From Minisyncoccota bacterium (lineage in GTDB: Bacteria; Patescibacteriota; Minisyncoccia; Phycocordibacterales; Phycocordibacteraceae): a stretch of 64,000 nucleotides of DNA. The stretch spans positions 5,912 to 69,911 of the forward strand of contig JBAZRE010000001.1 of assembly GCA_041663025.1 (NCBI GenBank). The letters are read 5' to 3'. Numbering within the stretch: the first letter of the stretch is position 1; the number at the start of each line of letters is the position of its first letter. The position numbers and the translations under genes are program-made. Below are positions 5,899-56,427 of the stretch, piece after piece. The notes under the pieces were generated by a model that was given only the letters and a program-made list of their open reading frames with translations, was not told where the DNA came from and made no database searches.

Positions 5899-6104
5899 CT
5901 TCTAGGACGACGCCTCAGATGAGCGAATTGGCTTTTATTTGGTCCGCCAATTTATTTCAAAACAAAGGGAGTATTTGTTCGGAATATTCCATCTCGAGAA
6001 TCGAAGCCAGAAAAATTGGAACTTGTTATCACTAATCTTCCCGAAACCAAATCGGTTAAGCGTGAGCTCAATATCTATGGACATACTTGATTTATCGCTT
6101 ATTT

Positions 6105-11873: not shown

Positions 11874-12467
11874 ATGCATATGTCTGACACTTGGAAGGGT
11901 CTGCTGAAGGATCTTTTCACGCTTGCACTCCTTGTTATTGTCGTTGTTATCCCGATTCGTGTCTTCGTCATTTCTCCTTTTGTTGTTGATGGTGAATCAA
12001 TGCATCCAACCTTTGAGAATCTCGACTATCTTATTGTTGACGAGTTTCTCTACATCTTCCAAACACCCGCCCGCGGTGATGTGGTCGTCTTCCGCTACCC
12101 AGACAATCCATCTATTTTTTATATCAAGCGCGTTATCGGACTCCCAGGCGAGACTGTCTCTATCAATAGAGGCGCGGTGACCATTATCAAAGCCGATGGG
12201 AGCGAGCTAACGCTAGCCGAGCCATACATTGTGAACGAAGACGCGACGTACACAAAAAACACTTCGCTCAACTCTGGTGAATATTTTGTTATGGGAGACA
12301 ATCGTCCGAACAGTTCTGACTCACGCATTTGGGGTCCATTGCAAAGGAAGAATATTATCGGTCGCGTCGACCTCCGGCTCCTCCCTATTTCAAAAAGTAG
12401 TTTCTTCCCAGGTGCAACGACTTATTCATCTATCACTGCAAGTTCGACAAAATCCCTTGCACCATGA
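11874..12467 (+). CDS. lepB: signal peptidase I
   Basis: ATG at 11874 (MHMSDTW…) is chosen over the longer ORF-track start. TM helix, then VVDGESMHPTF (Ser box), YIKRVIGLPGETV (Lys box) and FVMGDNRPNSSDSR. Confidence 0.85.
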   Translation: MHMSDTWKGLLKDLFTLALLVIVVVIPIRVFVISPFVVDGESMHPTFENLDYLIVDEFLYIFQTPARGDVVVFRYPDNPSIFYIKRVIGLPGETVSINRGAVTIIKADGSELTLAEPYIVNEDATYTKNTSLNSGEYFVMGDNRPNSSDSRIWGPLQRKNIIGRVDLRLLPISKSSFFPGATTYSSITASSTKSLAP

Positions 12468-13609
12468 TGCGCGATATTATCCCAGGAGAAGAGCTTTTGA
12501 GTAAATCACACGCTATTGGTCAGTATTACGGTTTCACTCCACTCTCCACGCTCACCGATAAAACGCGCGGCGCCGCCCGTCCAAAAAAAAATATTCCCGA
12601 TGCCGATATTGATTTCGGGAATGATCCGGTAGCTGACACCGTCGTAAACTTTTTGAAACAGTGCCGAAACTCTGAGTGCGTACCCTCTTCGCGGCGACCA
12701 CTCTTTATCTGGCATACGAACATTACCCCAGGGCGTCCAGTGCAGAAAAAAACAATCATACAATTCCACGCGCTCGGCACCGATCGCGCGATTGCAGATG
12801 CGGTTGTCATTCGCGCGCTCGTCGCCCTCTCGCGCGACCTCTTCCGTACTGAGCCCGTGGTGCGTATCAATTCAATGGGCGATAAGGAGACCCGCGCGCG
12901 CTACGCGCGCGAGCTCGGGTGTTATTTCAAAAAACGCGCGAACTCACTCCCCGATGAGTGTGCAGTGTGTGCGAAACGTGATGTGATTGAAGCTGCAGAG
13001 ATGGTTATTGCGCGTGGCTGGGCAGAGGATCTCCCGGCACCGACCGAGCATCTTTCTGATGCGAGCCGTAAACGTTTTGAAGATTTGCTCGAGTATCTTG
13101 AAATGACCGAAACACCCTATGAACTCGCACGCCACCTCATTAGCCGTAGCAATGCATGGAACGATATCTGTTTCGAAGTCATGGTTGGTGAACGACGTGT
13201 AGCATGGGGCTCGCGCTATGGTGATCTCACGAAGCACTTCTTCCCTGGTGCGCCATTCGCCGCAACGGGCGCAGTATTCCAAATCGCGAGTGAAGGTGCC
13301 GTGGTGAAGAAAACGTCACCATCGCGATTCCGCTTCTCCTTTATCCATATTGGCGACGAGGCAAAGCGGCACTCGATCCGCCTCGCTGAAGAATTCCGCA
13401 AAGCGCGCGTCCCGCTCACTCAAGATATCGGTGTCGAATCGCTAGCCGAACAGCTCTATCTCGCCGAGAAGCGCGACAGCCCCTATCTCCTCATTATGGG
13501 CCGCAAAGAGGCGCTTGAGAATTCGGCGATCCTCCGCAATCGCCAAACGCAACAAGAAACCATCCTCCCCCTCCTCGGCCTCGTCGACCGCCTAAAGTCG
13601 TTTGCATAA
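12464..13609 (+). CDS. hisS: histidyl-tRNA synthetase-like class II aaRS (divergent catalytic motifs)
   Basis: 381 aa. QFHALGTD resembles the HisRS motif 2 region and GSRYGDL resembles HisRS GGRYDxL. The C-terminal class II anticodon-binding domain reads FSFIHIGDEAKRHSIRLAEEFRKARVPLTQD…YLLIMGRKEAL. The N-terminal third aligns poorly. Confidence 0.5.
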   Translation: MMRDIIPGEELLSKSHAIGQYYGFTPLSTLTDKTRGAARPKKNIPDADIDFGNDPVADTVVNFLKQCRNSECVPSSRRPLFIWHTNITPGRPVQKKTIIQFHALGTDRAIADAVVIRALVALSRDLFRTEPVVRINSMGDKETRARYARELGCYFKKRANSLPDECAVCAKRDVIEAAEMVIARGWAEDLPAPTEHLSDASRKRFEDLLEYLEMTETPYELARHLISRSNAWNDICFEVMVGERRVAWGSRYGDLTKHFFPGAPFAATGAVFQIASEGAVVKKTSPSRFRFSFIHIGDEAKRHSIRLAEEFRKARVPLTQDIGVESLAEQLYLAEKRDSPYLLIMGRKEALENSAILRNRQTQQETILPLLGLVDRLKSFA

Positions 13610-13612
13610 CTA

Positions 13613-13633
13613 CCGTAAGGTGTCACCTTACGG
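13613..13633. repeat. REP-like hairpin, solitary copy of family 1
   Basis: Perfect palindrome CCGTAAGGTGTCACCTTACGG. The same unit occurs at 40057, 40098 and 40830-40874 next to a RAYT gene. Confidence 0.8.
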
Positions 13634-31794: not shown

Positions 31795-32331
31795 CTAATC
31801 CTTCGGAAGCGGAATCCTGTAGACAGCTTCGGGATCGAAGATTCCTCTCTCGCAACCAAAAGTCCTTGCTTCCATGAATTTTTCTTCCCATAATGCTTTT
31901 GCTTCCTTGACAGCCTTAACTCCATCATTAGCGGTGGTTGCCGTTTTCATAGGGATTCTCTCATCTTCGGAAAGATGGCTAACAAAGCCATCTCCCGACA
32001 GGAGTCTGTGTTTGTGTTCCAGATACCATTTCCCATTCCCCATACTTTCGTCTTTCTTCTCCGTTTTTTCTTGTACTTCAGGTTCGATGTCCTGCCCGAG
32101 AAGCCATGTCTTGATCTTCTCTGCATCCTCGGCAGTGTAGTGACCGACAAAAGATTGAGGATTCGATGTACAGAACGTACCTCTGCTAAGTCCCGACCAC
32201 TCGTAGATACCCTCAACTGATACGAAGTAATAGAGTTCGTCGAGAAGTCCTCTTCCGTCAGATTTACACTCTTCTTCAATTTCGATAAGTATCTGCACTA
32301 TCGGGTTGATCGAACATTTTATTTTTGCCAT
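31795..32331 (-). CDS. hypothetical protein
   Basis: 178 aa, acidic, with no recognisable motifs. Confidence 0.4.
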   Translation of the reverse strand: MAKIKCSINPIVQILIEIEEECKSDGRGLLDELYYFVSVEGIYEWSGLSRGTFCTSNPQSFVGHYTAEDAEKIKTWLLGQDIEPEVQEKTEKKDESMGNGKWYLEHKHRLLSGDGFVSHLSEDERIPMKTATTANDGVKAVKEAKALWEEKFMEARTFGCERGIFDPEAVYRIPLPKD

Positions 32332-32426
32332 TTTATACTCCTTTCTGTTGATGGTTTAGCTTCTACAAAAGACCCTTCCAATCCGAAAAGACGTTAGCAC
32401 GAGCTATATATAAAGTAAAGGTTTTG

Positions 32427-32499
32427 TGCCCCCTCCGGGAGTCGAACCTGGATCAGCTCGTTAGGAGTGAGCCGTTCTATCCATTGAACTAAGAGGGCA
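32427..32499 (-). tRNA. tRNA-Arg (anticodon CCU)
   Basis: Reverse complement GCCCTCTTAGTTCAATGGATAGAACGGCTCACTCCTAACGAGCTGATCCAGGTTCGACTCCCGGAGGGGGCA. T-loop TTCGACT and anticodon loop CTCCTAA. There are A-C mismatches at 31-39 and in the T-stem. Confidence 0.6.
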
Positions 32500-32502
32500 A
32501 TT

Positions 32503-32739
32503 TTAGATACCGAGTGTGCTGGCGAGCTTCTCTCTATCAAAACCGACGATTAGCGTATCACCAACTGAGATGACCGGCACACCCATCTGACCAGACTTCT
32601 GGATCATCTCCTGTCGCCTCTCCAGATCGTGTGCCACGTCATATTCAGTATAGGTAATTCCCTTCTCCTTCAAGAAGTCCTTGGCGAGCTGGCAGAAGTG
32701 GCAGGTCGGTGTGCTATAGATAGTGACGGTTTTGTCCAT
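32503..32739 (-). CDS. glutaredoxin-like protein (NrdH-type redoxin)
   Basis: 78 aa. VTIYSTPTCHFCQLAKDFL…GVPVI, a CxxC thioredoxin fold. Confidence 0.75.
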   Translation of the reverse strand: MDKTVTIYSTPTCHFCQLAKDFLKEKGITYTEYDVAHDLERRQEMIQKSGQMGVPVISVGDTLIVGFDREKLASTLGI

Positions 32740-32931
32740 AATATTTGAGTTAGTGTGCTGAGTATATCACTTTGTGCGGAATATGAGAACCGGCGATTAC
32801 GCCTTCGTTCGTCTGTACAGGGTTAAAGAAAACAGGCAAAATTAGTAATACACCAATACCTCCCCTCTTCATGAAACCCTCCTTGTGTGAGTCACACCTA
32901 AATTAAGGCTGGTTATATCCCTCTATAAATA

Positions 32932-33528
32932 CTATTGTCCCTCTATGAAGTTGAAAGTTGAGATAATTTTATTATGGATATCACTGTTTACACCTCTTAA
33001 CTTATAACTAATATCATTCTTTCGTAAAAAATAGAAAAGGTCATCAACTCCAATAGCATTGGTTAAAACTAATTTAAACGCTTTGACACCTCCTAAGTAA
33101 ATTTCTTTTTCTTCTAAAACCGTAGTTAAACTATCTCTACTTTTTAGGCTTCTTATCTCTTCTTCCAATTTATTATTTAGCACTCTCACAAAAACACCCG
33201 TTGCCCTATATTCCGAATTCGCACCCATAAAAACATTACCCAGGTCCGTCTGGTCTATTTGGTAATTATTGGGATATTTAATCTCGTAACCATATTTTTC
33301 ATTCCGATAAACATTCCAGTTTGAAGTATCTATCCCCGAAGTTTCATCTTTTATGGGTTCTGTTGTGCTTGCAGTTGGACCTTCTTTCGGCGTTTCTTTA
33401 CCGTTAAACGAAATTTGGTTTGGCTGAAAATTAACTTTTTGGGTCTCATACCAAACTCCGACAACGATAACCGACAACGTGAGAATGGAAATTACTAAAA
33501 CTGGTGCTTTTGAAGGGTATGCTGTCAT
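32932..33528 (-). CDS. hypothetical secreted/anchored protein
   Basis: 198 aa with an N-terminal TM or signal anchor, then a Thr/Asn-rich region. Confidence 0.4.
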   Translation of the reverse strand: MTAYPSKAPVLVISILTLSVIVVGVWYETQKVNFQPNQISFNGKETPKEGPTASTTEPIKDETSGIDTSNWNVYRNEKYGYEIKYPNNYQIDQTDLGNVFMGANSEYRATGVFVRVLNNKLEEEIRSLKSRDSLTTVLEEKEIYLGGVKAFKLVLTNAIGVDDLFYFLRKNDISYKLRGVNSDIHNKIISTFNFIEGQ

Positions 33529-33617
33529 GGGTTTATTTATTTTAAATATAGGTCCAAATCACAAAGAAGTCAAAATGTACCAGGGATGGGAGAATTTAGC
33601 TATTTAGACAATATTTG

Positions 33618-33689
33618 TGCGGGTACCGGGAATCGAACCCGGGTCTCAACCTTGGGAAGGTCGCGTTCTGCCACTAAACCATACCCGCT
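33618..33689 (-). tRNA. tRNA-Gly (anticodon CCC)
   Basis: Reverse complement GCGGGTATGGTTTAGTGGCAGAACGCGACCTTCCCAAGGTTGAGACCCGGGTTCGATTCCCGGTACCCGCA. Confidence 0.85.
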
Positions 33690-34030
33690 TATTTGAACCA
33701 ATTAATAACTCTTTGCCACCATGAGGGCACTGTGGTGGGTGCGCTCGTTGCCGGTGGCACCACCACAATAACCTCTTCTCCAGGTCGTGCAACACCGAAG
33801 GCCGATCGGACGGCAGCATCCTCGCCACGTTCCGTAGCAATTGCGGCGAGATTCGCCTCAAGCATCTTCTTGCGCTCTTCGAGCGCCTGATACTGTCGTT
33901 CTGCGCTGTTCGCTTGCGATACGGCCACCTCAGCCTTCCCTGCAAGCCCCCAGATAAGTGACGCCAACCAAAAAATGACCAACAAAAGGACACTTATCAG
34001 AACACCTTGCCGTAATTGCTTCGCGCGCAT
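33689..34030 (-). CDS. septum-formation-initiator-like protein (FtsB/DivIC-like: TM plus coiled coil)
   Basis: 113 aa with an N-terminal TM helix, then a heptad-like region (ERQYQALEERKKMLEANLAAI). Confidence 0.4.
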   Translation of the reverse strand: MRAKQLRQGVLISVLLLVIFWLASLIWGLAGKAEVAVSQANSAERQYQALEERKKMLEANLAAIATERGEDAAVRSAFGVARPGEEVIVVVPPATSAPTTVPSWWQRVINWFK

Positions 34031-40056: not shown

Positions 40057-40118
40057 CCGTAAGGTGACACCTTACGGTTTTTGGTATTTCCCCAGCTCCG
40101 TAAGGTGACACCTTACGG
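40057..40118. repeat. two tandem REP-like hairpins (family 1) upstream of the RAYT gene
   Basis: CCGTAAGGTGACACCTTACGG at 40057-40077 and again at 40098-40118. Confidence 0.85.
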
Positions 40119-40155
40119 TTTCCCTCTAGGGCATGCTAGTATTAGCTCATTACAT

Positions 40156-40827
40156 ATGACAAAGAGAGATGCCCCGTTTGCTGTCGGCGAGTGGTACCAC
40201 TGCTACAACCGTGGTATTGAAAAGCGTACCGTGTTTGAAGATACCAGGGATTATCATCGCTTTCTCGAACTCCTTTACTTGGCAAATGATGAGTTCCCTC
40301 TCCGGCGTGAAGATATCGGCACATATAAATTTGAAGAAATATTAAAGATTCCCCGCGGCAAGAAATTGGTCGCCATTGGAGCGTTCTGCCTGATGCCTAA
40401 CCACTTCCATCTGGTGCTGAAGGAGATCTCGGAGGGAGGTATCACCGCATTTATGCGAAAAATCGGAACATCCTATACTTTGTATTTTAATGCACGGCAT
40501 GAGAGGACTGGAAACCTCTTCCTAAAGCCATTCCGATCCCTTCATGTATCTAACGACCGTTACTTCCAACACCTCATTAACTATGTTCACTGCAATCCAG
40601 CAGCTCTCTATGAACCTGGGTGGAAAACTAACCAGGTTGTGGACCCTCAATTCTTGGGAGAACAGATTGCAGCTTATCCATACTCAAGTCTTGGTGCCCA
40701 TACTGGTGCACACCCATCGACCAGACCCATCCTGGATGCAGAAGTATTCTCCATAACGCATACTGTTCGGATACAAAAGATGCTGCAAGAAGCACGACAG
40801 TATTACGCTGATTCTAATCTTCCGTAA
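40156..40827 (+). CDS. IS200/IS605-family Y1 (HUH) transposase-like protein, REP-associated (RAYT-like)
   Basis: ATG at 40156 (MTKRDAPF…) is preferred. The N-terminal part of the longer track ORF overlaps the REP hairpins. WYHCYNRG…, the HUH motif CLMPNHFHLVL, and the catalytic Tyr region YVHCNPAA. Confidence 0.75.
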   Translation: MTKRDAPFAVGEWYHCYNRGIEKRTVFEDTRDYHRFLELLYLANDEFPLRREDIGTYKFEEILKIPRGKKLVAIGAFCLMPNHFHLVLKEISEGGITAFMRKIGTSYTLYFNARHERTGNLFLKPFRSLHVSNDRYFQHLINYVHCNPAALYEPGWKTNQVVDPQFLGEQIAAYPYSSLGAHTGAHPSTRPILDAEVFSITHTVRIQKMLQEARQYYADSNLP

Positions 40828-40874
40828 GGCCGTAAGGTGTCACTTTACGTCAGGCGTAAAGTGACACCTTACGG
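40822..40874. repeat. compound REP-like hairpin (family 1) downstream of the RAYT gene
   Basis: CCGTAAGG + CCGTAAGGTGTCACTTTACG-tcaggc-CGTAAAGTGACACCTTACGG (a 20-bp stem). Confidence 0.8.
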
Positions 40875-40898: not shown

Positions 40899-41241
40899 CG
40901 GACTGAACTAAGCGATCGCCCGCCAACATCTGCGAAGTTGTGGCGGGAGGAAAGTCCGAACATACTCCTGCCGTAAGGCGGGAAAATAGGTAGCGGGTAA
41001 CGCCCGTCGTCCGTGAGGATAGAGGTGACCACAGAAACGTCCTGAGCGAAAGTGAAGGAATTCCCTCGTGGAATACGCCCGTCGCGAGATGGGAATGCAA
41101 CGACTAAATCCTTACCCGTATGCAAGGCCGTGCCCGACCACACTTCGAGTGTGACGGGAGTGACGCTTAAGGCGTTGAGTAATTAACGGCTCAGATAAAT
41201 GATCGCTCACGACAGAATTCGGCTTATCGGCTCAGTCCACA
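40899..41241 (+). ncRNA. rnpB: RNase P RNA (bacterial type A-like)
   Basis: P1 pairs GGACTGA (40900-40906) with TCAGTCC (41232-41238). The P4 5' strand is GGGAGGAAAGTCCGAACA, the P4 3' strand is ACAGAATTCGGCTTATCGG, and the internal sequence GCGAAAGTGAAGG is also present. Confidence 0.8.
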
Positions 41242-41248
41242 AAGATGC

Positions 41249-52292: not shown

Positions 52293-52306
52293 GCTTGAAA
52301 ACAAGA

Positions 52307-52346
52307 AAACAAGGGTGCCCCTTGCAGCAAGGGGCACCCTTGTTTT
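52307..52346. repeat. GC-rich REP-like hairpin (family 2) between recG and 52346..53182
   Basis: AAAACAAGGGTGCCCCTTG-cagca-AGGGGCACCCTTGTTTT (stem of at least 15 bp). It may also act as a bidirectional terminator. Confidence 0.8.
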
Positions 52347-53182
52347 TACTCCGCCGTTTCTTCTTTCCCCTTATCTCTCTCCGCAACAAACTTTTTTACT
52401 TCTTCATAACTCATCTGCTTGGGCCAACGAAGATCTCCTTCTTCATTATAAATGGGCAACAGCAATTCAGGTTTGTCTTTGTATGCCTCTATTTGAGCAT
52501 CAAGAGTTCCGTAATCACCAACAATCCCGCGGAAATAGCGTGGCGCTAAGCGATGACTAAGGGCAAAACCATCTTCGCTAGTTACGATGGTTGCACCTTC
52601 CTCATTCAATTGATCATCATGAAATCCATGCAAATTATCCATCGCACGATAGGTCCGACTCTTGCCTGGAAATAATTCCGAAGCTCTTTTGCTTTTGCCC
52701 ATCTCAACCCTTTCAGAAAACGATGATAGATCGAAAATTATAAAGACATTTGGATTGCGACGACTCATCCAGTGAGAGTCTTTTATTGATTGGGGTTGTT
52801 CATATTTATATGCGTCCATCCTCCCGAGAATATTGAAGAAAACATTCCCGCCCGATGACTCTCCATCCCTCAAATTTTTTGACCAATTTTCTTTGGATAT
52901 TTCTGTCTTTCCCCAAGTAAAATCTGGACATCCCAGCAATCCTTCACGATATATTTTCGCTAGAACTTCTTTTTTTAGACTATGTTCACCCCCGCCACCA
53001 GCATCTCTGGTTACGTTAATTTGAGTAAAAGCTGTTCCCTTTTTATTGATGTCCTGCACTTTCTCCATTATCTTCTCAATCGTTTCTGGTGAGAGATCTT
53101 TTTCTAGCTCTTCGAGACTCTTTTCTTCTGGCACACTCTCGACCTTTGGCGCTTCTGGCTTTTGCGGTCCTTCTAGGCTCAT
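52346..53182 (-). CDS. hypothetical protein bracketed by family-2 REP hairpins
   Basis: 278 aa, acidic N-terminus (…PEEKSLEELEKDLSPETIEKIMEK…). No recognisable motifs. Confidence 0.45.
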   Translation of the reverse strand: MSLEGPQKPEAPKVESVPEEKSLEELEKDLSPETIEKIMEKVQDINKKGTAFTQINVTRDAGGGGEHSLKKEVLAKIYREGLLGCPDFTWGKTEISKENWSKNLRDGESSGGNVFFNILGRMDAYKYEQPQSIKDSHWMSRRNPNVFIIFDLSSFSERVEMGKSKRASELFPGKSRTYRAMDNLHGFHDDQLNEEGATIVTSEDGFALSHRLAPRYFRGIVGDYGTLDAQIEAYKDKPELLLPIYNEEGDLRWPKQMSYEEVKKFVAERDKGKEETAE

Positions 53183-53222
53183 GGGAAGAATAATATCATC
53201 AAATCAACCGTTGCAAGCATTG

Positions 53223-53269
53223 CAAGGGTGCCCCTTGTATCTTGCACAAGCTTACAAGGGGCACCCTTG
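53223..53269. repeat. REP-like hairpin (family 2) upstream of the second RAYT gene
   Basis: CAAGGGTGCCCCTTG – 17 nt – CAAGGGGCACCCTTG. Confidence 0.8.
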
Positions 53270-53293
53270 TTAGGTTACGATAGTAAATAAGTT

Positions 53294-53923
53294 ATGAGAA
53301 AACGCGATTATAAAGAATTCGCTCCCGACACGTCCTATCACATCTATAACCGTGGAAACGGTAAAATGGACATTTTTCGTGATGAACAAGATTACTTGAA
53401 CTTTCTCAAGCGCCTTCGCCTCTTGCTCGGTAAAACAAGGGGCACCCTTGCATCGTCAATTCGAGTTACGCCATTTGAATCAGACGACTTCTCGCTTATT
53501 GCCTACTGTCTAATGCCAAATCACTTCCACTTGCAGGTAGAACAATGCGGAGAAGTGTCATTAAGTAGCCTCTTGCTTAAGGTGTGTACGAGTTATTCTA
53601 TGTATTTCAATCGTAAGTATGACCATGTCGGGCACGTGTTCCAAGATCAATTTAAAGCCATTCCGGTTGAGTCAGATAATCAAATGGCCGCATTGTCGGC
53701 ATACATACACCAAAATCCAAAAGTGGCAGGGTTAGTAGACACTCTCGACGCGTGGGTTTATAGCAGTTATCCGGATTATATTGGACTTCGGCAGGGCGAT
53801 CTTATTGATCCCGAATCAGTACTCGGTCAATTTCCAAATAAAGAAGCCTACAAAAGTTTCGTGGACGAGCAATACGAAGAAATTCTTGAACGAAAAAATA
53901 TCAGAGAACTCCTTCTTGATTAA
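53294..53923 (+). CDS. IS200/IS605-family Y1 (HUH) transposase-like protein, REP-associated (RAYT-like), second copy
   Basis: 209 aa. YHIYNRGNGKMDIF…, the HUH motif CLMPNHFHLQV, and the Tyr region YIHQNP. A family-2 REP half-site AAAACAAGGGGCACCCTTG lies in frame at 53433-53451 and encodes KTRGTLA. Confidence 0.75.
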   Translation: MRKRDYKEFAPDTSYHIYNRGNGKMDIFRDEQDYLNFLKRLRLLLGKTRGTLASSIRVTPFESDDFSLIAYCLMPNHFHLQVEQCGEVSLSSLLLKVCTSYSMYFNRKYDHVGHVFQDQFKAIPVESDNQMAALSAYIHQNPKVAGLVDTLDAWVYSSYPDYIGLRQGDLIDPESVLGQFPNKEAYKSFVDEQYEEILERKNIRELLLD

Positions 53924-53924
53924 C

Positions 53925-53969
53925 TGCAAGGGGCACCCTTGTAATTTAATTACAAGGGTGCCCCTTGCG
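53925..53969. repeat. REP-like hairpin (family 2) downstream of the RAYT gene
   Basis: CTGCAAGGGGCACCCTTG-taatttaat-TACAAGGGTGCCCCTTG. Confidence 0.8.
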
Positions 53970-53973
53970 ACTT

Positions 53974-54048
53974 GTCCGCCCCCTTGGACTCGAACCAAGA
54001 ACCGCAGAGGTATAAGCTCTGTGCTCTAACCAATTGAGCTAGGGGCGG
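53974..54048 (-). tRNA. tRNA-Ile with genomically encoded UAU anticodon
   Basis: Reverse complement CCGCCCCTAGCTCAATTGGTTAGAGCACAGAGCTTATACCTCTGCGGTTCTTGGTTCGAGTCCAAGGGGGCGGA. U8 is present, the D-arm is Ile/Met-like, the anticodon loop is CTTATAC, and the T-loop is TTCGAGT. Confidence 0.7.
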
Positions 54049-55989: not shown

Positions 55990-56025
55990 AAAAGATACTT
56001 CACCATAACACTAAAACACTAATTT

Positions 56026-56427
56026 GTGGAGGCGCGGGGAGTTGAACCCCGGTCCGAGAATGTTTATGAAAGCGATTCTACGACGCATAGTCAGCGTTAG
56101 ATTTAAGGCAGGATGCGAGGAACGCAGACGAAACCATTCCTGCCCGATCCCTTATTTAAATGTGCCGAGCGGGAGGTCGGACATCGATTCAACAGATAAT
56201 TCCGCCCCTGCCTCCGGCTGTAGAAACCCGAGAGGAGAGACGTCGCGCTAGGCGTGTGCCGTTAGGCTGCGTAGGCGAACGCGAAGTCAGACACACCGAA
56301 GTATGGAGACTTCACGCTTGCAAGAGTGTTCTTGGCAAGTTTGATTTCCCGCCAGTTTTAAGTGTTAGCGGGAGAGCACTGCGTCGCACGTCTTTCAAAG
56401 AACAGACCGTCAAAGCCGGTCACCCCC
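56026..56427 (-). ncRNA. ssrA: tmRNA (transfer-messenger RNA)
   Basis: The 5' end is GGGGGTGACCGGCTTTGACGG and the 3' end is …GGACCGGGGTTCAACTCCCCGCGCCTCCA, giving a tRNA-Ala-like acceptor with G3-U70 and a T-arm. An internal tag frame ends …FAFAYAA-TAA. It lies directly downstream of smpB on the same strand. Confidence 0.8.

What the first reader, a model, noticed from the sequence alone, without database searches (positions are those of the whole stretch)
52307..53969. Second, GC-rich REP-like hairpin family (CAAGGGTGCCCCTTG) bracketing a second RAYT-like gene and an adjacent hypothetical gene, with one half-site inside the RAYT CDS
Hairpins with 15-17 bp stems occur at 52307-52346, 53223-53269 and 53925-53969. 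They delimit two back-to-back genes, the hypothetical 52346-53182 on the minus strand and the RAYT-like 53294-53923 on the plus strand. An extra half-site, AAAACAAGGGGCACCCTTG, lies in frame inside the RAYT ORF (53433-53451, KTRGTLA). The two RAYT genes in this window are about 35-40 percent identical by eye in the conserved blocks, and each is paired with a different REP sequence. That fits co-evolving RAYT/REP pairs. The 278-aa hypothetical gene inside the REP brackets could be cargo.
Basis: seen in the sequence. Interest (0 to 1): 0.55.

Follow-up and report, generated by a model that had tools for sequence, protein, structure and literature searches.

The report
RAYT gene carrying its own REP
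A domesticated transposase gene in a tiny uncultured (CPR) bacterium is flanked by its own palindromic DNA repeats, which is a known arrangement, but it and many relatives also carry an in-frame copy of that repeat inside the gene, and this copy changes in step with the flanking ones.

Summary
The 15-mer CAAGGGTGCCCCTTG or its complement occurs 7 times, all within 52310-53967 (0.05 expected). Six copies form three hairpin doublets and one lies in frame inside a Y1/HUH gene.

That gene's predicted fold is closest to E. coli TnpA_REP. This is therefore a REPtron, a RAYT-like gene with its cognate REPs, in a Candidatus Paceibacterota MAG.

- **Not just local terminators.** One doublet lies between divergent gene starts. 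Orthologous loci keep the 15-mer, and the same doublet occurs on 55 metagenome contigs, mostly away from any RAYT.
- **Not abundant here.** There are no further copies in about 79 kb of the source genome. There is no GTAG tag, and the protein scores below NCBIfam's RAYT cut-off.
- **Cargo idea not supported.** Homologs of the 278-aa gene never sit beside RAYTs. However, a syntenic relative lacks the gene exactly between the REP sites.
- **New point.** The internal half-site is a family trait. In 33 of 92 related loci (2.9 expected) the CDS holds an exact copy of that locus's own flanking repeat. These copies cluster in two protein loops. Orientation and reading frame vary, and the copies evolve in concert with the flanks.

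I rate it a new variant of a known kind, of moderate interest.

The parts
52306..52346 (.). REP doublet 1 (A then B, 3 nt between the 15-mers). It is flanked by AAAA on one side and TTTTT on the other. It lies between the convergent stops of recG (52292) and the 278-aa ORF (52346) and looks like a bidirectional terminator.
   Evidence: -23.3 kcal/mol, z -8.1. One search reports a terminator-like site on the minus strand.
52346..53182 (-). 278-aa ORF of unknown function. It belongs to a family restricted to CPR/Patescibacteria. Its GC is 0.42 against about 0.52 for its neighbours. It is not part of the RAYT/REP machinery, but it lies between two REP doublets.
   Evidence: 106 homologs, the nearest relative from another genome 39% identical, no Pfam domains; no family hit; homolog contexts; absent at the syntenic site in L145. 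GC.
53223..53269 (.). REP doublet 2 (A then B, 17 nt between them). It sits in the 111-nt region between the divergent start codons of the 278-aa ORF and the RAYT-like gene. In that position it cannot be a terminator.
   Evidence: -21.7 kcal/mol, z -6.2.
53294..53923 (+). RAYT-like Y1/HUH gene, 209 aa. The HUH motif is H77-F78-H79 and the catalytic Tyr137 lies in YIHQNP.
   Evidence: Y1_Tnp, 7.9e-10. (REP_Tyr_transpos, 48 bits, below the cut-off of 80). (invariant residues). (alignment to 4er8). (AF2 model, pLDDT 89). (Foldseek top hit 4er8_A, E 4e-7).
53436..53450 (+). Intragenic REP copy (B orientation). It is in frame and encodes R49-G-T-L52 within the loop between helix 31-44 and strand 66-73.
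53926..53968 (.). REP doublet 3 (B then A, 11 nt between them). It starts 3 nt after the RAYT stop codon and ends 6 nt before the 3' end of tRNA-Ile.
   Evidence: -25.4 kcal/mol, z -11.0.
53974..54048 (-). tRNA-Ile (anticodon TAT) abutting the REPtron. The same neighbour is present in the syntenic relative L145.
40057..40874 (+). Context: the first RAYT-like gene (40156-40827) with its own REP, CGTAAGGTG-A-CACCTTACG. There are two direct copies upstream (40057-40077 and 40098-40118) and a doublet downstream (40830-40874). It has no intragenic copy.
13615..13631 (.). Context: a dispersed single copy of the first RAYT's REP, 26 kb from that gene. It starts 6 nt after the end of ORF 12464-13609.

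Best explanation
The locus is a REPtron of a CPR (Candidatus Paceibacterota) bacterium. It consists of a single-copy, RAYT-type Y1/HUH nuclease-transposase gene and its cognate REP.

The REP is a 15-nt imperfect palindrome (6-bp stem, 3-nt loop). It is present here as three inverted doublets (small REPIN-like hairpins) and one single copy.

**Inferred mechanism, by analogy with E. coli TnpA_REP and IS200/IS605 TnpA.** The protein binds the small REP hairpin when the DNA is single-stranded. It cuts nearby through Tyr137 and the HUH metal site. This seeds, moves or replaces REP copies, most efficiently in cis. That would explain why the copies pile up around its own gene.

**Secondary roles.** The doublets are probably co-opted as structural elements. 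Doublet 1 has the anatomy of a bidirectional terminator between recG and the 278-aa gene.

**The intragenic copy.** It sits in a surface loop that tolerates insertions. Its DNA sequence, not its peptide, is retained, and it is kept identical to the flanking copies by concerted evolution. The concerted evolution is shown. Whether it comes from RAYT-mediated replacement or from gene conversion is inferred.

**The 278-aa gene.** It is an unrelated CPR gene caught between two REP doublets. Its presence or absence among relatives is a REP-bounded indel, not evidence of dedicated cargo transport.
For: **Protein.**
- Pfam Y1_Tnp scores 7.9e-10.
- The HUH motif and Tyr are invariant in 17- and 62-sequence alignments.
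- The profile aligns YIHQNPKVAGLV...W.YSSY with TnpA_REP YIYINPVKHGWV...WPFSTF.
- The AF2 model has pLDDT 89 and pTM 0.86. Its best Foldseek hit in the PDB is 4er8_A, TnpA_REP bound to a REP hairpin (E 4e-7, TM 0.68), ahead of the IS200, ISDra2 and IS608 TnpA structures.

**Repeats.**
- There are 7 exact 15-mers against 0.05 expected, and the hairpins are very stable.
- Doublet 2 lies between divergent start codons, so it is not a terminator.
- Orthologs that are 70-83% identical keep the same 15-mer in their flanks, while the rest of the intergenic DNA and the synonymous sites drift.
- The same doublet occurs on 55 metagenome contigs with GC from 27 to 55%. Only about 11 of these have a RAYT homolog in the fetched DNA. 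About 70% of the doublets fall outside any ORF of at least 120 aa, by a crude count.

**Family architecture.**
- 68 of 87 loci share at least 12 nt between their upstream and downstream flanks.

**Vertical, single-copy behaviour.**
- L145 is syntenic with the window (recG-RAYT-tRNA-Ile-ftsH).
- L146-L150, which are 54-72% identical, share a different conserved site upstream of gap-rpiB-rpe-tkt.

**Intragenic copies.**
- 33 of 92 loci have an exact match of at least 13 nt between the CDS and their own flanks. Permuted flanks give a mean of 2.85 and a maximum of 5.
- The matches cluster at aa 47-60 and aa 142-149. They are in frame in intact ORFs.
- These positions are the loop 45-65 and the end of the catalytic helix 128-144 in the model.
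- Peptides differ with frame and orientation: RGTL, RVPL, QGAPL, RGALG.
- In L144 the internal copy is the exact palindrome with its loop flipped, which changes GT to VP.
- In L149 the REP has changed to GCCAAGGGGCGCCCTTGGC, and the internal and downstream copies are the identical 19-mer.

**Literature.**
- REPtrons whose REPs are concentrated next to tnpA_REP are known (PMC8266576).
- REPtrons in species without a REP family are also known (PMC3733652).
Against: - No copy of this REP occurs outside the locus in about 79 kb of the source genome. The defining genome-wide REP population is therefore not demonstrated here.
- No GTAG or other conserved tetranucleotide precedes the palindrome.
- The NCBIfam REP_Tyr_transpos score is 48, below the curated cut-off of 80. 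The sequence match to 4er8 is marginal, E 0.009.
- No biochemical activity can be tested here.
- The locus has lower GC (0.42) than its neighbours (0.52-0.53). The window/L144/L145 clade also sits at a different site from L146-L150. The gene has therefore moved, or been acquired, at least once. That is more IS-like than strictly domesticated.
- Some close homologs have let the internal copy decay (L146, P0111, P0112). It is therefore not universally maintained.
Confidence: 0.8

Rival explanations
1. The intragenic REP copies are functional cis-elements. Through them the RAYT, or the hairpin itself in DNA or mRNA, controls or switches the RAYT gene (autoregulation or self-targeting). Selection on the DNA sequence maintains them. 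This extends the best explanation and does not exclude it.
For: - Copies recur at the same two positions across a very divergent family, and they evolve in concert with the flanks.
- The palindrome is kept while synonymous sites around it drift, and it survives a loop flip that changes two residues.
- The internal copy is 100% complementary over 18 nt to the upstream copy at 53221-53238, 196 nt away. The start codon lies between the two (I5).
Against: - About two thirds of the loci have no exact internal copy.
- Close relatives such as L146 and P0111/P0112 have let it decay without losing the ORF.
- The first RAYT in the same window has none.
- A single 15-mer folds at only about -5 kcal/mol.
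- Cis-biased REP proliferation combined with only two insertion-tolerant loops would give the same picture.
Confidence: 0.25
2. The segment from doublet 1 through the 278-aa gene, doublet 2 and the RAYT to doublet 3 is a composite mobile unit, and the 278-aa gene is cargo moved by REP/RAYT activity.
For: - Both genes have GC 0.42 against 0.52-0.53 for their neighbours, and the dip starts and ends at the outer doublets.
- The syntenic relative L145 lacks about 1 kb, namely the 278-aa gene and its doublets, between recG and the RAYT.
- L144, which is 83% identical, has the gene.
Against: - Homologs of the 278-aa protein in four other genomes lie in unrelated housekeeping contexts with no Y1_Tnp gene nearby.
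- None of the RAYT loci fetched encodes a homolog, apart from the source locus and L144.
- Doublets 1 and 2 are direct repeats of each other (both A then B). Simple recombination between them would delete the gene, which would equally explain L145.
- L145 shows no clean empty-site signature.
Confidence: 0.1
3. This is an autonomous IS200/IS605-type insertion sequence, and the hairpins are its left and right ends.
For: - It has a Y1 transposase fold.
- Subterminal hairpins lie within 3-24 nt of the ORF ends.
- There is a GC dip.
- It sits next to a tRNA gene.
- The clade occupies two different genomic sites.
Against: - It is single-copy in 79 kb, and its protein cluster has one member sequence.
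- Orthologs stay at the same syntenic site across 54-72% identity.
- The ends are symmetrical inverted doublets of one short palindrome, not distinct LE and RE structures.
- The protein is 209 aa with the RAYT-type C-terminal extension, and its best structural hit is TnpA_REP rather than IS200 TnpA.
- The same doublet exists at many loci without the gene.
Confidence: 0.07
4. The hairpins are ordinary intrinsic terminators or other local structures peculiar to this locus, and the match inside the CDS is coincidence.
For: - Doublet 1 has the A-run, stem and T-run anatomy of a terminator and is flagged by the terminator scan.
- No other copies occur in 79 kb of this genome.
Against: - There are seven exact 15-mers against 0.05 expected.
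- Doublet 2 lies between divergent start codons, and doublet 3 has no T-run.
- The 15-mer is conserved in orthologous loci and occurs on 55 unrelated contigs.
- Family-wide co-variation includes the intragenic copies.
Confidence: 0.03

Closest known systems
REPtrons: TnpA_REP/RAYT genes with flanking REP/BIME sequences (Nunvar 2010; Ton-Hoang 2012, PMC3333891; Bertels and Rainey 2011, PMC3116915; Corneloup 2021, PMC8266576)
   Same: - It has a Y1/HUH protein with the RAYT C-terminal extension, and its best structural match is 4er8.
- The gene is bracketed on both sides by short palindromes in inverted orientation.
- It is single-copy with syntenic orthologs.
- Two RAYTs in one genome each have their own REP.
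- REPs concentrated next to the gene are also seen in the Marinomonas REPtrons (PMC8266576).
   Different: - There is no GTAG tag.
- The REP is very short, 15 nt.
- No dispersed population was seen in 79 kb of the source genome.
- The protein falls below NCBIfam's RAYT cut-off.
- The host is a CPR/Patescibacteria bacterium. The searched library holds no paper linking RAYTs or REPINs to that group.
- In a third of the related loci, copies of the REP lie in frame inside the RAYT gene at two hot spots.
RAYT groups 1, 4 and 5 of Bertels et al. 2017 (PMC5581495)
   Same: - Their flanking 16-mers are low-copy, 12-31 per replicon, rather than the hundreds seen for groups 2 and 3.
- Group 4 is common in Cyanobacteria and Caldilineae. 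Homologs 33-38% identical to this protein occur in Cyanobacteria and Chloroflexota.
   Different: Assignment to a group was not tested here, because no reference sequences for the groups were available. The non-CPR homologs have a 12-aa linker and no intragenic repeat.
Intragenic REPs and Rickettsia palindromic elements (Di Nocera 2013, PMC3733652; Ogata 2000, from memory)
   Same: Short palindromic repeats are inserted in frame in protein-coding genes and add 5-30 residues in tolerated positions.
   Different: In those cases the hosts are unrelated genes such as uvrA and uvrB. Here the host is the gene of the enzyme presumed to mobilise the repeat. Copies recur at the same two loops across the family and co-vary with the flanks.
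IS200/IS605 insertion sequences (IS608, ISDra2)
   Same: Both have a Y1 HUH catalytic core and hairpins close to the ends of the coding region. A single-strand DNA mechanism is presumed for both.
   Different: - Here there are no distinct LE and RE structures.
- There are no multiple copies and no tnpB gene.
- The genomic position is stable across deep divergence.

Membership tests
RAYT / TnpA_REP (REPtron) | Y1 HUH fold with the HUH motif and a single catalytic tyrosine | tested here: met
   H77-F78-H79 and Y137 are invariant. Pfam Y1_Tnp scores 7.9e-10. Foldseek gives probability 1.00 to 4er8 and to the IS200, ISDra2 and IS608 TnpA structures.
RAYT / TnpA_REP (REPtron) | Closer to TnpA_REP than to IS200 TnpA (RAYT-specific motifs and C-terminal extension) | tested here: inconclusive
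   The top structural hit is 4er8_A (E 4e-7, against 7e-5 for IS200). The YI..NP...G.V and W..S.. motifs align with TnpA_REP. REP_Tyr_transpos is the only NCBIfam hit but scores 48 bits against a cut-off of 80.
RAYT / TnpA_REP (REPtron) | Gene flanked on both sides by copies of one palindromic repeat in inverted orientation | tested here: met
   Doublets lie at 53223-53269 and 53926-53968. 68 of 87 related loci share a repeat between their two flanks.
RAYT / TnpA_REP (REPtron) | Single copy per genome and vertically inherited | tested here: inconclusive
   There is one copy of each RAYT in 64-79 kb. Orthologs are syntenic in L145 and in L146-L150. The clade nevertheless occupies two different sites, and the whole genome was not available.
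RAYT / TnpA_REP (REPtron) | Cognate REPs dispersed through the genome in elevated copy number | tested here: not met
   There are 0 copies outside the locus in about 79 kb of the source genome. The same doublet does occur at loci without a RAYT on about 44 other metagenome contigs. The first RAYT's REP has one dispersed copy. The whole-genome count could not be tested here.
RAYT / TnpA_REP (REPtron) | Conserved GTAG (or CGTC) tetranucleotide at the foot of the palindrome | tested here: not met
   The bases 5' of the seven copies are AAAA, ATTG, ATTA, AAAA, CTAA, ATGC and ATTA. The 55 metagenome doublets also show no conserved tag.
RAYT / TnpA_REP (REPtron) | Binds and cleaves single-stranded REP DNA | not testable with these tools
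   This needs purified protein and oligonucleotides.
REPIN | Two REPs in inverted orientation forming one hairpin | tested here: met
   There are three doublets with arms of 17-21 nt that are 100% complementary. At 33-47 nt they are shorter than classical REPINs.
REPIN | A replicating population of many copies within one genome | tested here: not met
   Only the three doublets at the RAYT locus occur in about 79 kb. Identical 42-nt doublets at different loci in low-GC contigs of one sample (L024 and L030) hint at dispersal elsewhere, but assignment of those contigs to one genome was not shown.
IS200/IS605 insertion sequence | Several near-identical copies of the whole unit, with distinct left and right subterminal hairpins | tested here: not met
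   The unit is single-copy. Both ends are built from the same 15-mer. Orthologs are syntenic at 54-72% identity.
Intrinsic terminator | G+C-rich hairpin followed by a T-run at the 3' end of a gene | tested here: inconclusive
   Doublet 1 fits on both strands. Doublet 2 lies between start codons, and doublet 3 has no T-run.

The most novel reading that the evidence does not exclude
In the CPR clade of RAYT-like genes, the enzyme's own recognition hairpin is deliberately kept inside its coding sequence, at two defined loops. There it serves as a self-targeting control element. It could act through autoregulation by binding its own single-stranded DNA or mRNA. It could also act as a built-in site for reversible inactivation by excision between the internal and a flanking REP. 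Concerted evolution of the internal and flanking copies would then reflect selection to keep the gene visible to its own product.
Probability: 0.2. Interest if true: 0.7.

Novelty: new variant of a known kind. Interest (0 to 1): 0.5.

Why it matters
REP/RAYT systems are the textbook case of a domesticated transposase that maintains a population of short repeats. They have been studied almost only in Proteobacteria.

This locus shows the same architecture in the reduced genomes of the Candidate Phyla Radiation. The protein search found more than 7,800 homologs of this protein, and the named ones among the top hits are mostly CPR. Here the repeats are few and concentrated at the gene.

The recurring in-frame copies of the repeat inside the enzyme's own gene co-vary with the flanks. 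They provide a natural experiment on three questions:
- how RAYTs and REPs stay matched;
- whether homogenisation is driven by the enzyme or by gene conversion;
- whether a RAYT can regulate or damage its own gene.

There is also a practical point. Peptides such as RGTL, QGAPL and RGALG in these proteins are translated repeats. They can mislead start-codon calling and alignment, as shown by the N-terminal extensions 'YKGAPC' and 'YKGHPC' in database entries.

Tried and rejected
- **Genome-wide copy number in the source MAG.** The metagenome collection did not hold the source contig. I walked outward with two edge genes and gained only about 15 kb, with no new copy. One look-up failed.
- **Phage association.** There are 0 doublets in viral contigs.
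- **Known RNA families.** Rfam has nothing at the hairpins.
- **Sigma-70 promoter.** The scan found no promoter-like site in the divergent intergenic region.
- **My first control for intragenic matches.** It was spoiled by runs of N in the spacers. I replaced it.
- **A general excess of AAGG...CCTT palindromes in the window.** Apart from the two REP families there are 6, against about 5 expected. I rejected this as a signal.
- **A clean empty-site signature for the 278-aa gene in L145.** I did not find one.
Full report
**1. The observation**

The 15-mer CAAGGGTGCCCCTTG (here called A) and its reverse complement CAAGGGGCACCCTTG (B) occur seven times without mismatch. All seven lie between 52310 and 53967. 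Dinucleotide-preserving shuffles give 0.05 matches, allowing up to 2 mismatches, and none reached 8.

Six copies are arranged as three inverted pairs:
- 52306-52346, with 20-nt arms;
- 53223-53269, with 17-nt arms;
- 53926-53968, with 21-nt arms.

All arms are 100% complementary. As single-stranded DNA the pairs fold at -23.3, -21.7 and -25.4 kcal/mol, with z-scores of -8 to -11. The seventh copy (B, 53436-53450) is in frame in ORF 53294-53923 and reads T-R-G-T-L-A.

Each 15-mer is itself a small imperfect palindrome, CAAGGG-TGC-CCCTTG. The repeat unit is therefore a short hairpin whose 3-nt loop gives it an orientation. Doublets 1 and 2 are A then B. Doublet 3 is B then A.

**2. The genes**

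*The Y1/HUH gene.* ORF 53294-53923 (209 aa) matches Pfam Y1_Tnp at 7.9e-10. Its only NCBIfam hit is REP_Tyr_transpos, at 48 bits against a curated cut-off of 80.
- H77-F78-H79 and Y137 (in YIHQNP) are invariant in alignments of 17 and 62 homologs.
- An AlphaFold2 model built from 62 sequences has pLDDT 89 and pTM 0.86.
- Its best Foldseek hit among solved structures is 4er8_A, E. coli TnpA_REP bound to a REP hairpin (E 4e-7, TM 0.68 on the target). The IS200, ISDra2 and IS608 transposases follow.
- By sequence profile the match to 4er8 is marginal, E 0.009. It aligns the RAYT-typical YI..NP...G.V and W..S.. motifs.

*The second RAYT-like gene.* It lies at 40156-40827 and is 31-34% identical. 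It has its own palindrome, CGTAAGGTG-A-CACCTTACG. There are two direct copies upstream and a doublet downstream. One further dispersed copy lies at 13615-13631.

*The source organism.* It is a MAG labelled Candidatus Paceibacterota.

**3. Not local terminators, but not an abundant REP family in this genome either**

Doublet 1 lies between the convergent stops of recG and the 278-aa ORF. It has AAAA upstream and TTTTT downstream, and the terminator scan flags it. It probably serves as a bidirectional terminator.

Doublet 2 lies in the 111 nt between two divergent start codons. Doublet 3 has no T-run. One copy is inside a CDS. Termination therefore cannot be the common denominator.

Orthologous loci keep the same 15-mer around and inside the gene, although the rest of the intergenic DNA differs. 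These loci are:

| Locus | RAYT identity to the window |
|---|---|
| L144 | 83% |
| L145 | 77% |
| L146 | 72% |
| L016 | 70% |

A scan of public metagenome contigs used the doublet pattern CAAGGGKSMCCCTTG-N1-31-CAAGGGKSMCCCTTG.
- It found 55 contigs from many samples, with GC from 27 to 55% and with different loops and stem extensions.
- Only about eleven have a RAYT homolog in the fetched DNA.
- About 70% of the doublets fall outside any ORF of at least 120 aa, by a crude count.
- Several have the A-run/T-run look of terminators.
- None was found in viral contigs.

Within the source genome I found no further copy in the 64-kb window, nor in about 15 kb more reached by walking from the edge genes. 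For this genome it remains open.

REPtrons whose REPs are concentrated beside the gene are already described (PMC8266576). So are REPtrons in species without a REP family (PMC3733652). RAYT groups with low-copy flanking repeats are also known (PMC5581495).

**4. The internal half-site is a family trait**

In the alignment of homologs the half-site falls in a variable linker. There, other members read RGTL, RVPL, QGAPL, TRAPL...QGAPL or PRGALG. Database ORFs with over-long N-termini read YKGAPC, YKGHPC or VRGALG. All of these are translations of AAGGG...CCCTT-type palindromes in different frames and orientations.

I fetched 80 related loci from species-representative genomes. To these I added the metagenome loci that contain a homolog. 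I then asked whether each CDS shares an exact match of at least 13 nt with its own 400-nt flanks.
- 33 of 92 loci do. When flanks are permuted among loci the mean is 2.85 and the maximum is 5.
- The matches cluster at two places in query coordinates: aa 47-60 (15 loci) and aa 142-149 (9 loci). A third set lies in the C-terminal tail, where the ORF runs into the downstream repeat.
- In the model, the first site is the loop 45-65 between helix 31-44 and strand 66-73. This is the least confident internal segment. The second site is the end of the catalytic helix 128-144 and the loop after it.
- The copies are in frame in intact ORFs. Examples are L078 KGPGP, L105 QGEAL, L106 KGHPFKGSPF, L091 KVSPSEGSPSEGETL, L110 IKVPNLV and L097 KGVTF.

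The repeat differs from locus to locus, and in each locus the internal copy matches that locus's flanks. Examples of the repeat are:
- CAAGGGTGCCCCTTG
- AAGGTCTCACCTT
- CAAGGCGAGGCCTTG
- CAAGGTTCCGAACCTTG
- AGGGCCTGGCCCT
- GCCAAGGGGCGCCCTTGGC

Non-CPR homologs (Cyanobacteria, Chloroflexota and others) have a 12-aa linker and no such copy.

**5. DNA-level retention and concerted evolution**

A codon-by-codon view of five orthologs shows synonymous sites drifting on both sides of the repeat. The internal 15-mer behaves as follows:

| Locus | State of the internal 15-mer |
|---|---|
| Window | exact |
| L145 | exact |
| L144 | exact, but with the 3-nt loop inverted (GGC ACC to GTG CCC, so Gly-Thr becomes Val-Pro) |
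| L016 | one mismatch |
| L146 | decayed |

In L149, which is 54% identical, the loop has changed from GCA to GCG and the closing bases have changed too. The internal copy and the copy 5 nt after the stop codon are the identical 19-mer.

What is retained is therefore the palindrome and not the peptide. The copies of one locus change together. This much is shown.

How they are homogenised is inferred. The candidates are RAYT-mediated replacement, short-tract gene conversion from the flanking copies, or repeated re-insertion at a preferred target. Maintenance is not universal, because the internal copy has decayed in some close relatives and the first RAYT in this window has none.

My favoured reading has three parts. 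REP proliferation is biased towards sites in cis. Only two loops tolerate an insertion. The copies are then homogenised. A regulatory, self-targeting role remains possible at roughly one in four or five.

**6. The 278-aa gene**

It has 106 homologs, all from CPR-type metagenome bins. The nearest relative from another genome is 39% identical. No Pfam domain is recorded for any of them. Nothing was found in Pfam, NCBIfam, PHROGs, PADLOC or the PDB sequence search. A confident model (pTM 0.81) gives only insignificant Foldseek hits with an ADP-ribosyltransferase theme.

In four other genomes its homologs lie next to trmD/ftsW/murG, gyrA or sugar-biosynthesis genes. None has a Y1_Tnp gene nearby. 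The family is therefore not linked to RAYTs.

L145 is syntenic with the window (M48 peptidase, LemA, recG, RAYT, tRNA-Ile, ftsH). It lacks about 1 kb, window 52293-53291. In its place it has 172 bp containing one degenerate and one exact REP. L144 has the gene.

The 278-aa gene and the RAYT have the same low GC, 0.42 against 0.52-0.53 for recG and ftsH. Doublets 1 and 2 are direct repeats of each other, so recombination between them could delete the gene. Insertion is equally possible. There is no outgroup to decide. I treat this as a REP-bounded indel and give the cargo reading about 10%.

**7. Comparison with known systems and verdict**

By architecture and fold the locus works like a REPtron. 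It meets these defining features:
- a Y1/HUH protein closest to TnpA_REP;
- flanking inverted palindromes;
- single-copy behaviour with syntenic orthologs.

It does not meet, or could not be shown to meet, these features:
- the GTAG tag;
- a dispersed high-copy REP population in the source genome;
- NCBIfam's RAYT score cut-off.

It is not an IS200/IS605 insertion sequence. It is single-copy, its ends are symmetrical, and orthologs hold a conserved position upstream of gap-rpiB-rpe-tkt across 54-72% identity. The clade containing the window does sit at a different site (recG/tRNA-Ile), so the unit has relocated at least once.

The searched literature has no paper connecting RAYTs or REPINs with CPR/Patescibacteria. 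I also found no mention of REPs inside a RAYT coding sequence. Intragenic REPs in other genes are known (PMC3733652).

The recurrent, concertedly evolving intragenic copies are a new variant. Overall interest is moderate.

Noticed in passing
window 13615-13631: A single dispersed copy of the first RAYT's REP (GTAAGGTGTCACCTTAC) lies 26 kb from that gene and starts 6 nt after the end of ORF 12464-13609. That REP family has therefore spread within this genome, whereas the second family shows no dispersed copy in 79 kb.
   Followed up: partly
window 40900-41242; 53975-54048; 56024-56427: Both RAYT-like genes abut stable-RNA genes. RNase P RNA starts about 25 nt after the first RAYT's downstream REP doublet. 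tRNA-Ile lies 6 nt from the second RAYT's downstream doublet, and tmRNA is 2 kb further on. This could be chance, or a preference for such sites.
   Followed up: no
window 53974-54048 (-): The tRNA-Ile has a TAT anticodon (that is, UAU) rather than the usual lysidine-modified CAT type. The same gene follows the RAYT in L145.
   Followed up: no
L146-L150 (for example L149 3453-4160): RAYT orthologs 54-72% identical to the window's gene occupy one conserved site in several Parcubacteria. The site lies between a giant surface protein (Peptidase_S74/Kelch domains, up to 2583 aa) and the gap-rpiB-rpe-tkt operon.
   Followed up: partly
L004 3702-3743, L020, L052, L054; L049/L050: Some doublets of the same 15-mer lie inside longer ORFs of other genes. 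One example is a direct (not inverted) pair within a 247-aa ORF that recurs in four samples. Another lies within a 327-aa ORF. I did not check whether these ORFs are real genes.
   Followed up: no
window 32200-33800: This is the lowest-GC stretch of the window (0.36 against a mean of 0.50). It covers ORF 32932-33528 and lies between tRNA-Arg and tRNA-Gly. It may be a foreign insert.
   Followed up: no
window 31320, 44733, 57987, 10919: There are other isolated CAAGG...CCTTG palindromes with 6-7 bp stems: CCAAGGTTGAACCTTGT, GCAAGGACTACCCTTGC, ACAAGGGTATTCCCCTTGT and TCAAGGAGAACCCTTGG. Their number is not above chance. They could nonetheless be relics of other REP specificities or terminators.
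   Followed up: partly
window 52346-53182 (-): The AF2 model of the 278-aa protein (pTM 0.81) gives only insignificant Foldseek hits, but they share a theme. They are ADP-ribosyltransferase-fold proteins: the CteC effector, DarT, the PARP catalytic domain and heat-labile enterotoxin.
   Followed up: partly
P0109, P0116, P0156 (database protein entries): Several database ORFs for this family start too far upstream and translate the upstream REP. Their N-termini read ...YKGAPC......YKGHPC... and ...VRGALG.... This is an annotation artefact caused by the repeats.
   Followed up: no
L145 4455-5624 and 6817-8757: recG and ftsH are split into several short called genes in this syntenic contig. This suggests frameshift errors in that assembly. 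Fine details of its REP sites, such as the 'degenerate' copy at 5929, should be read with caution.
   Followed up: no
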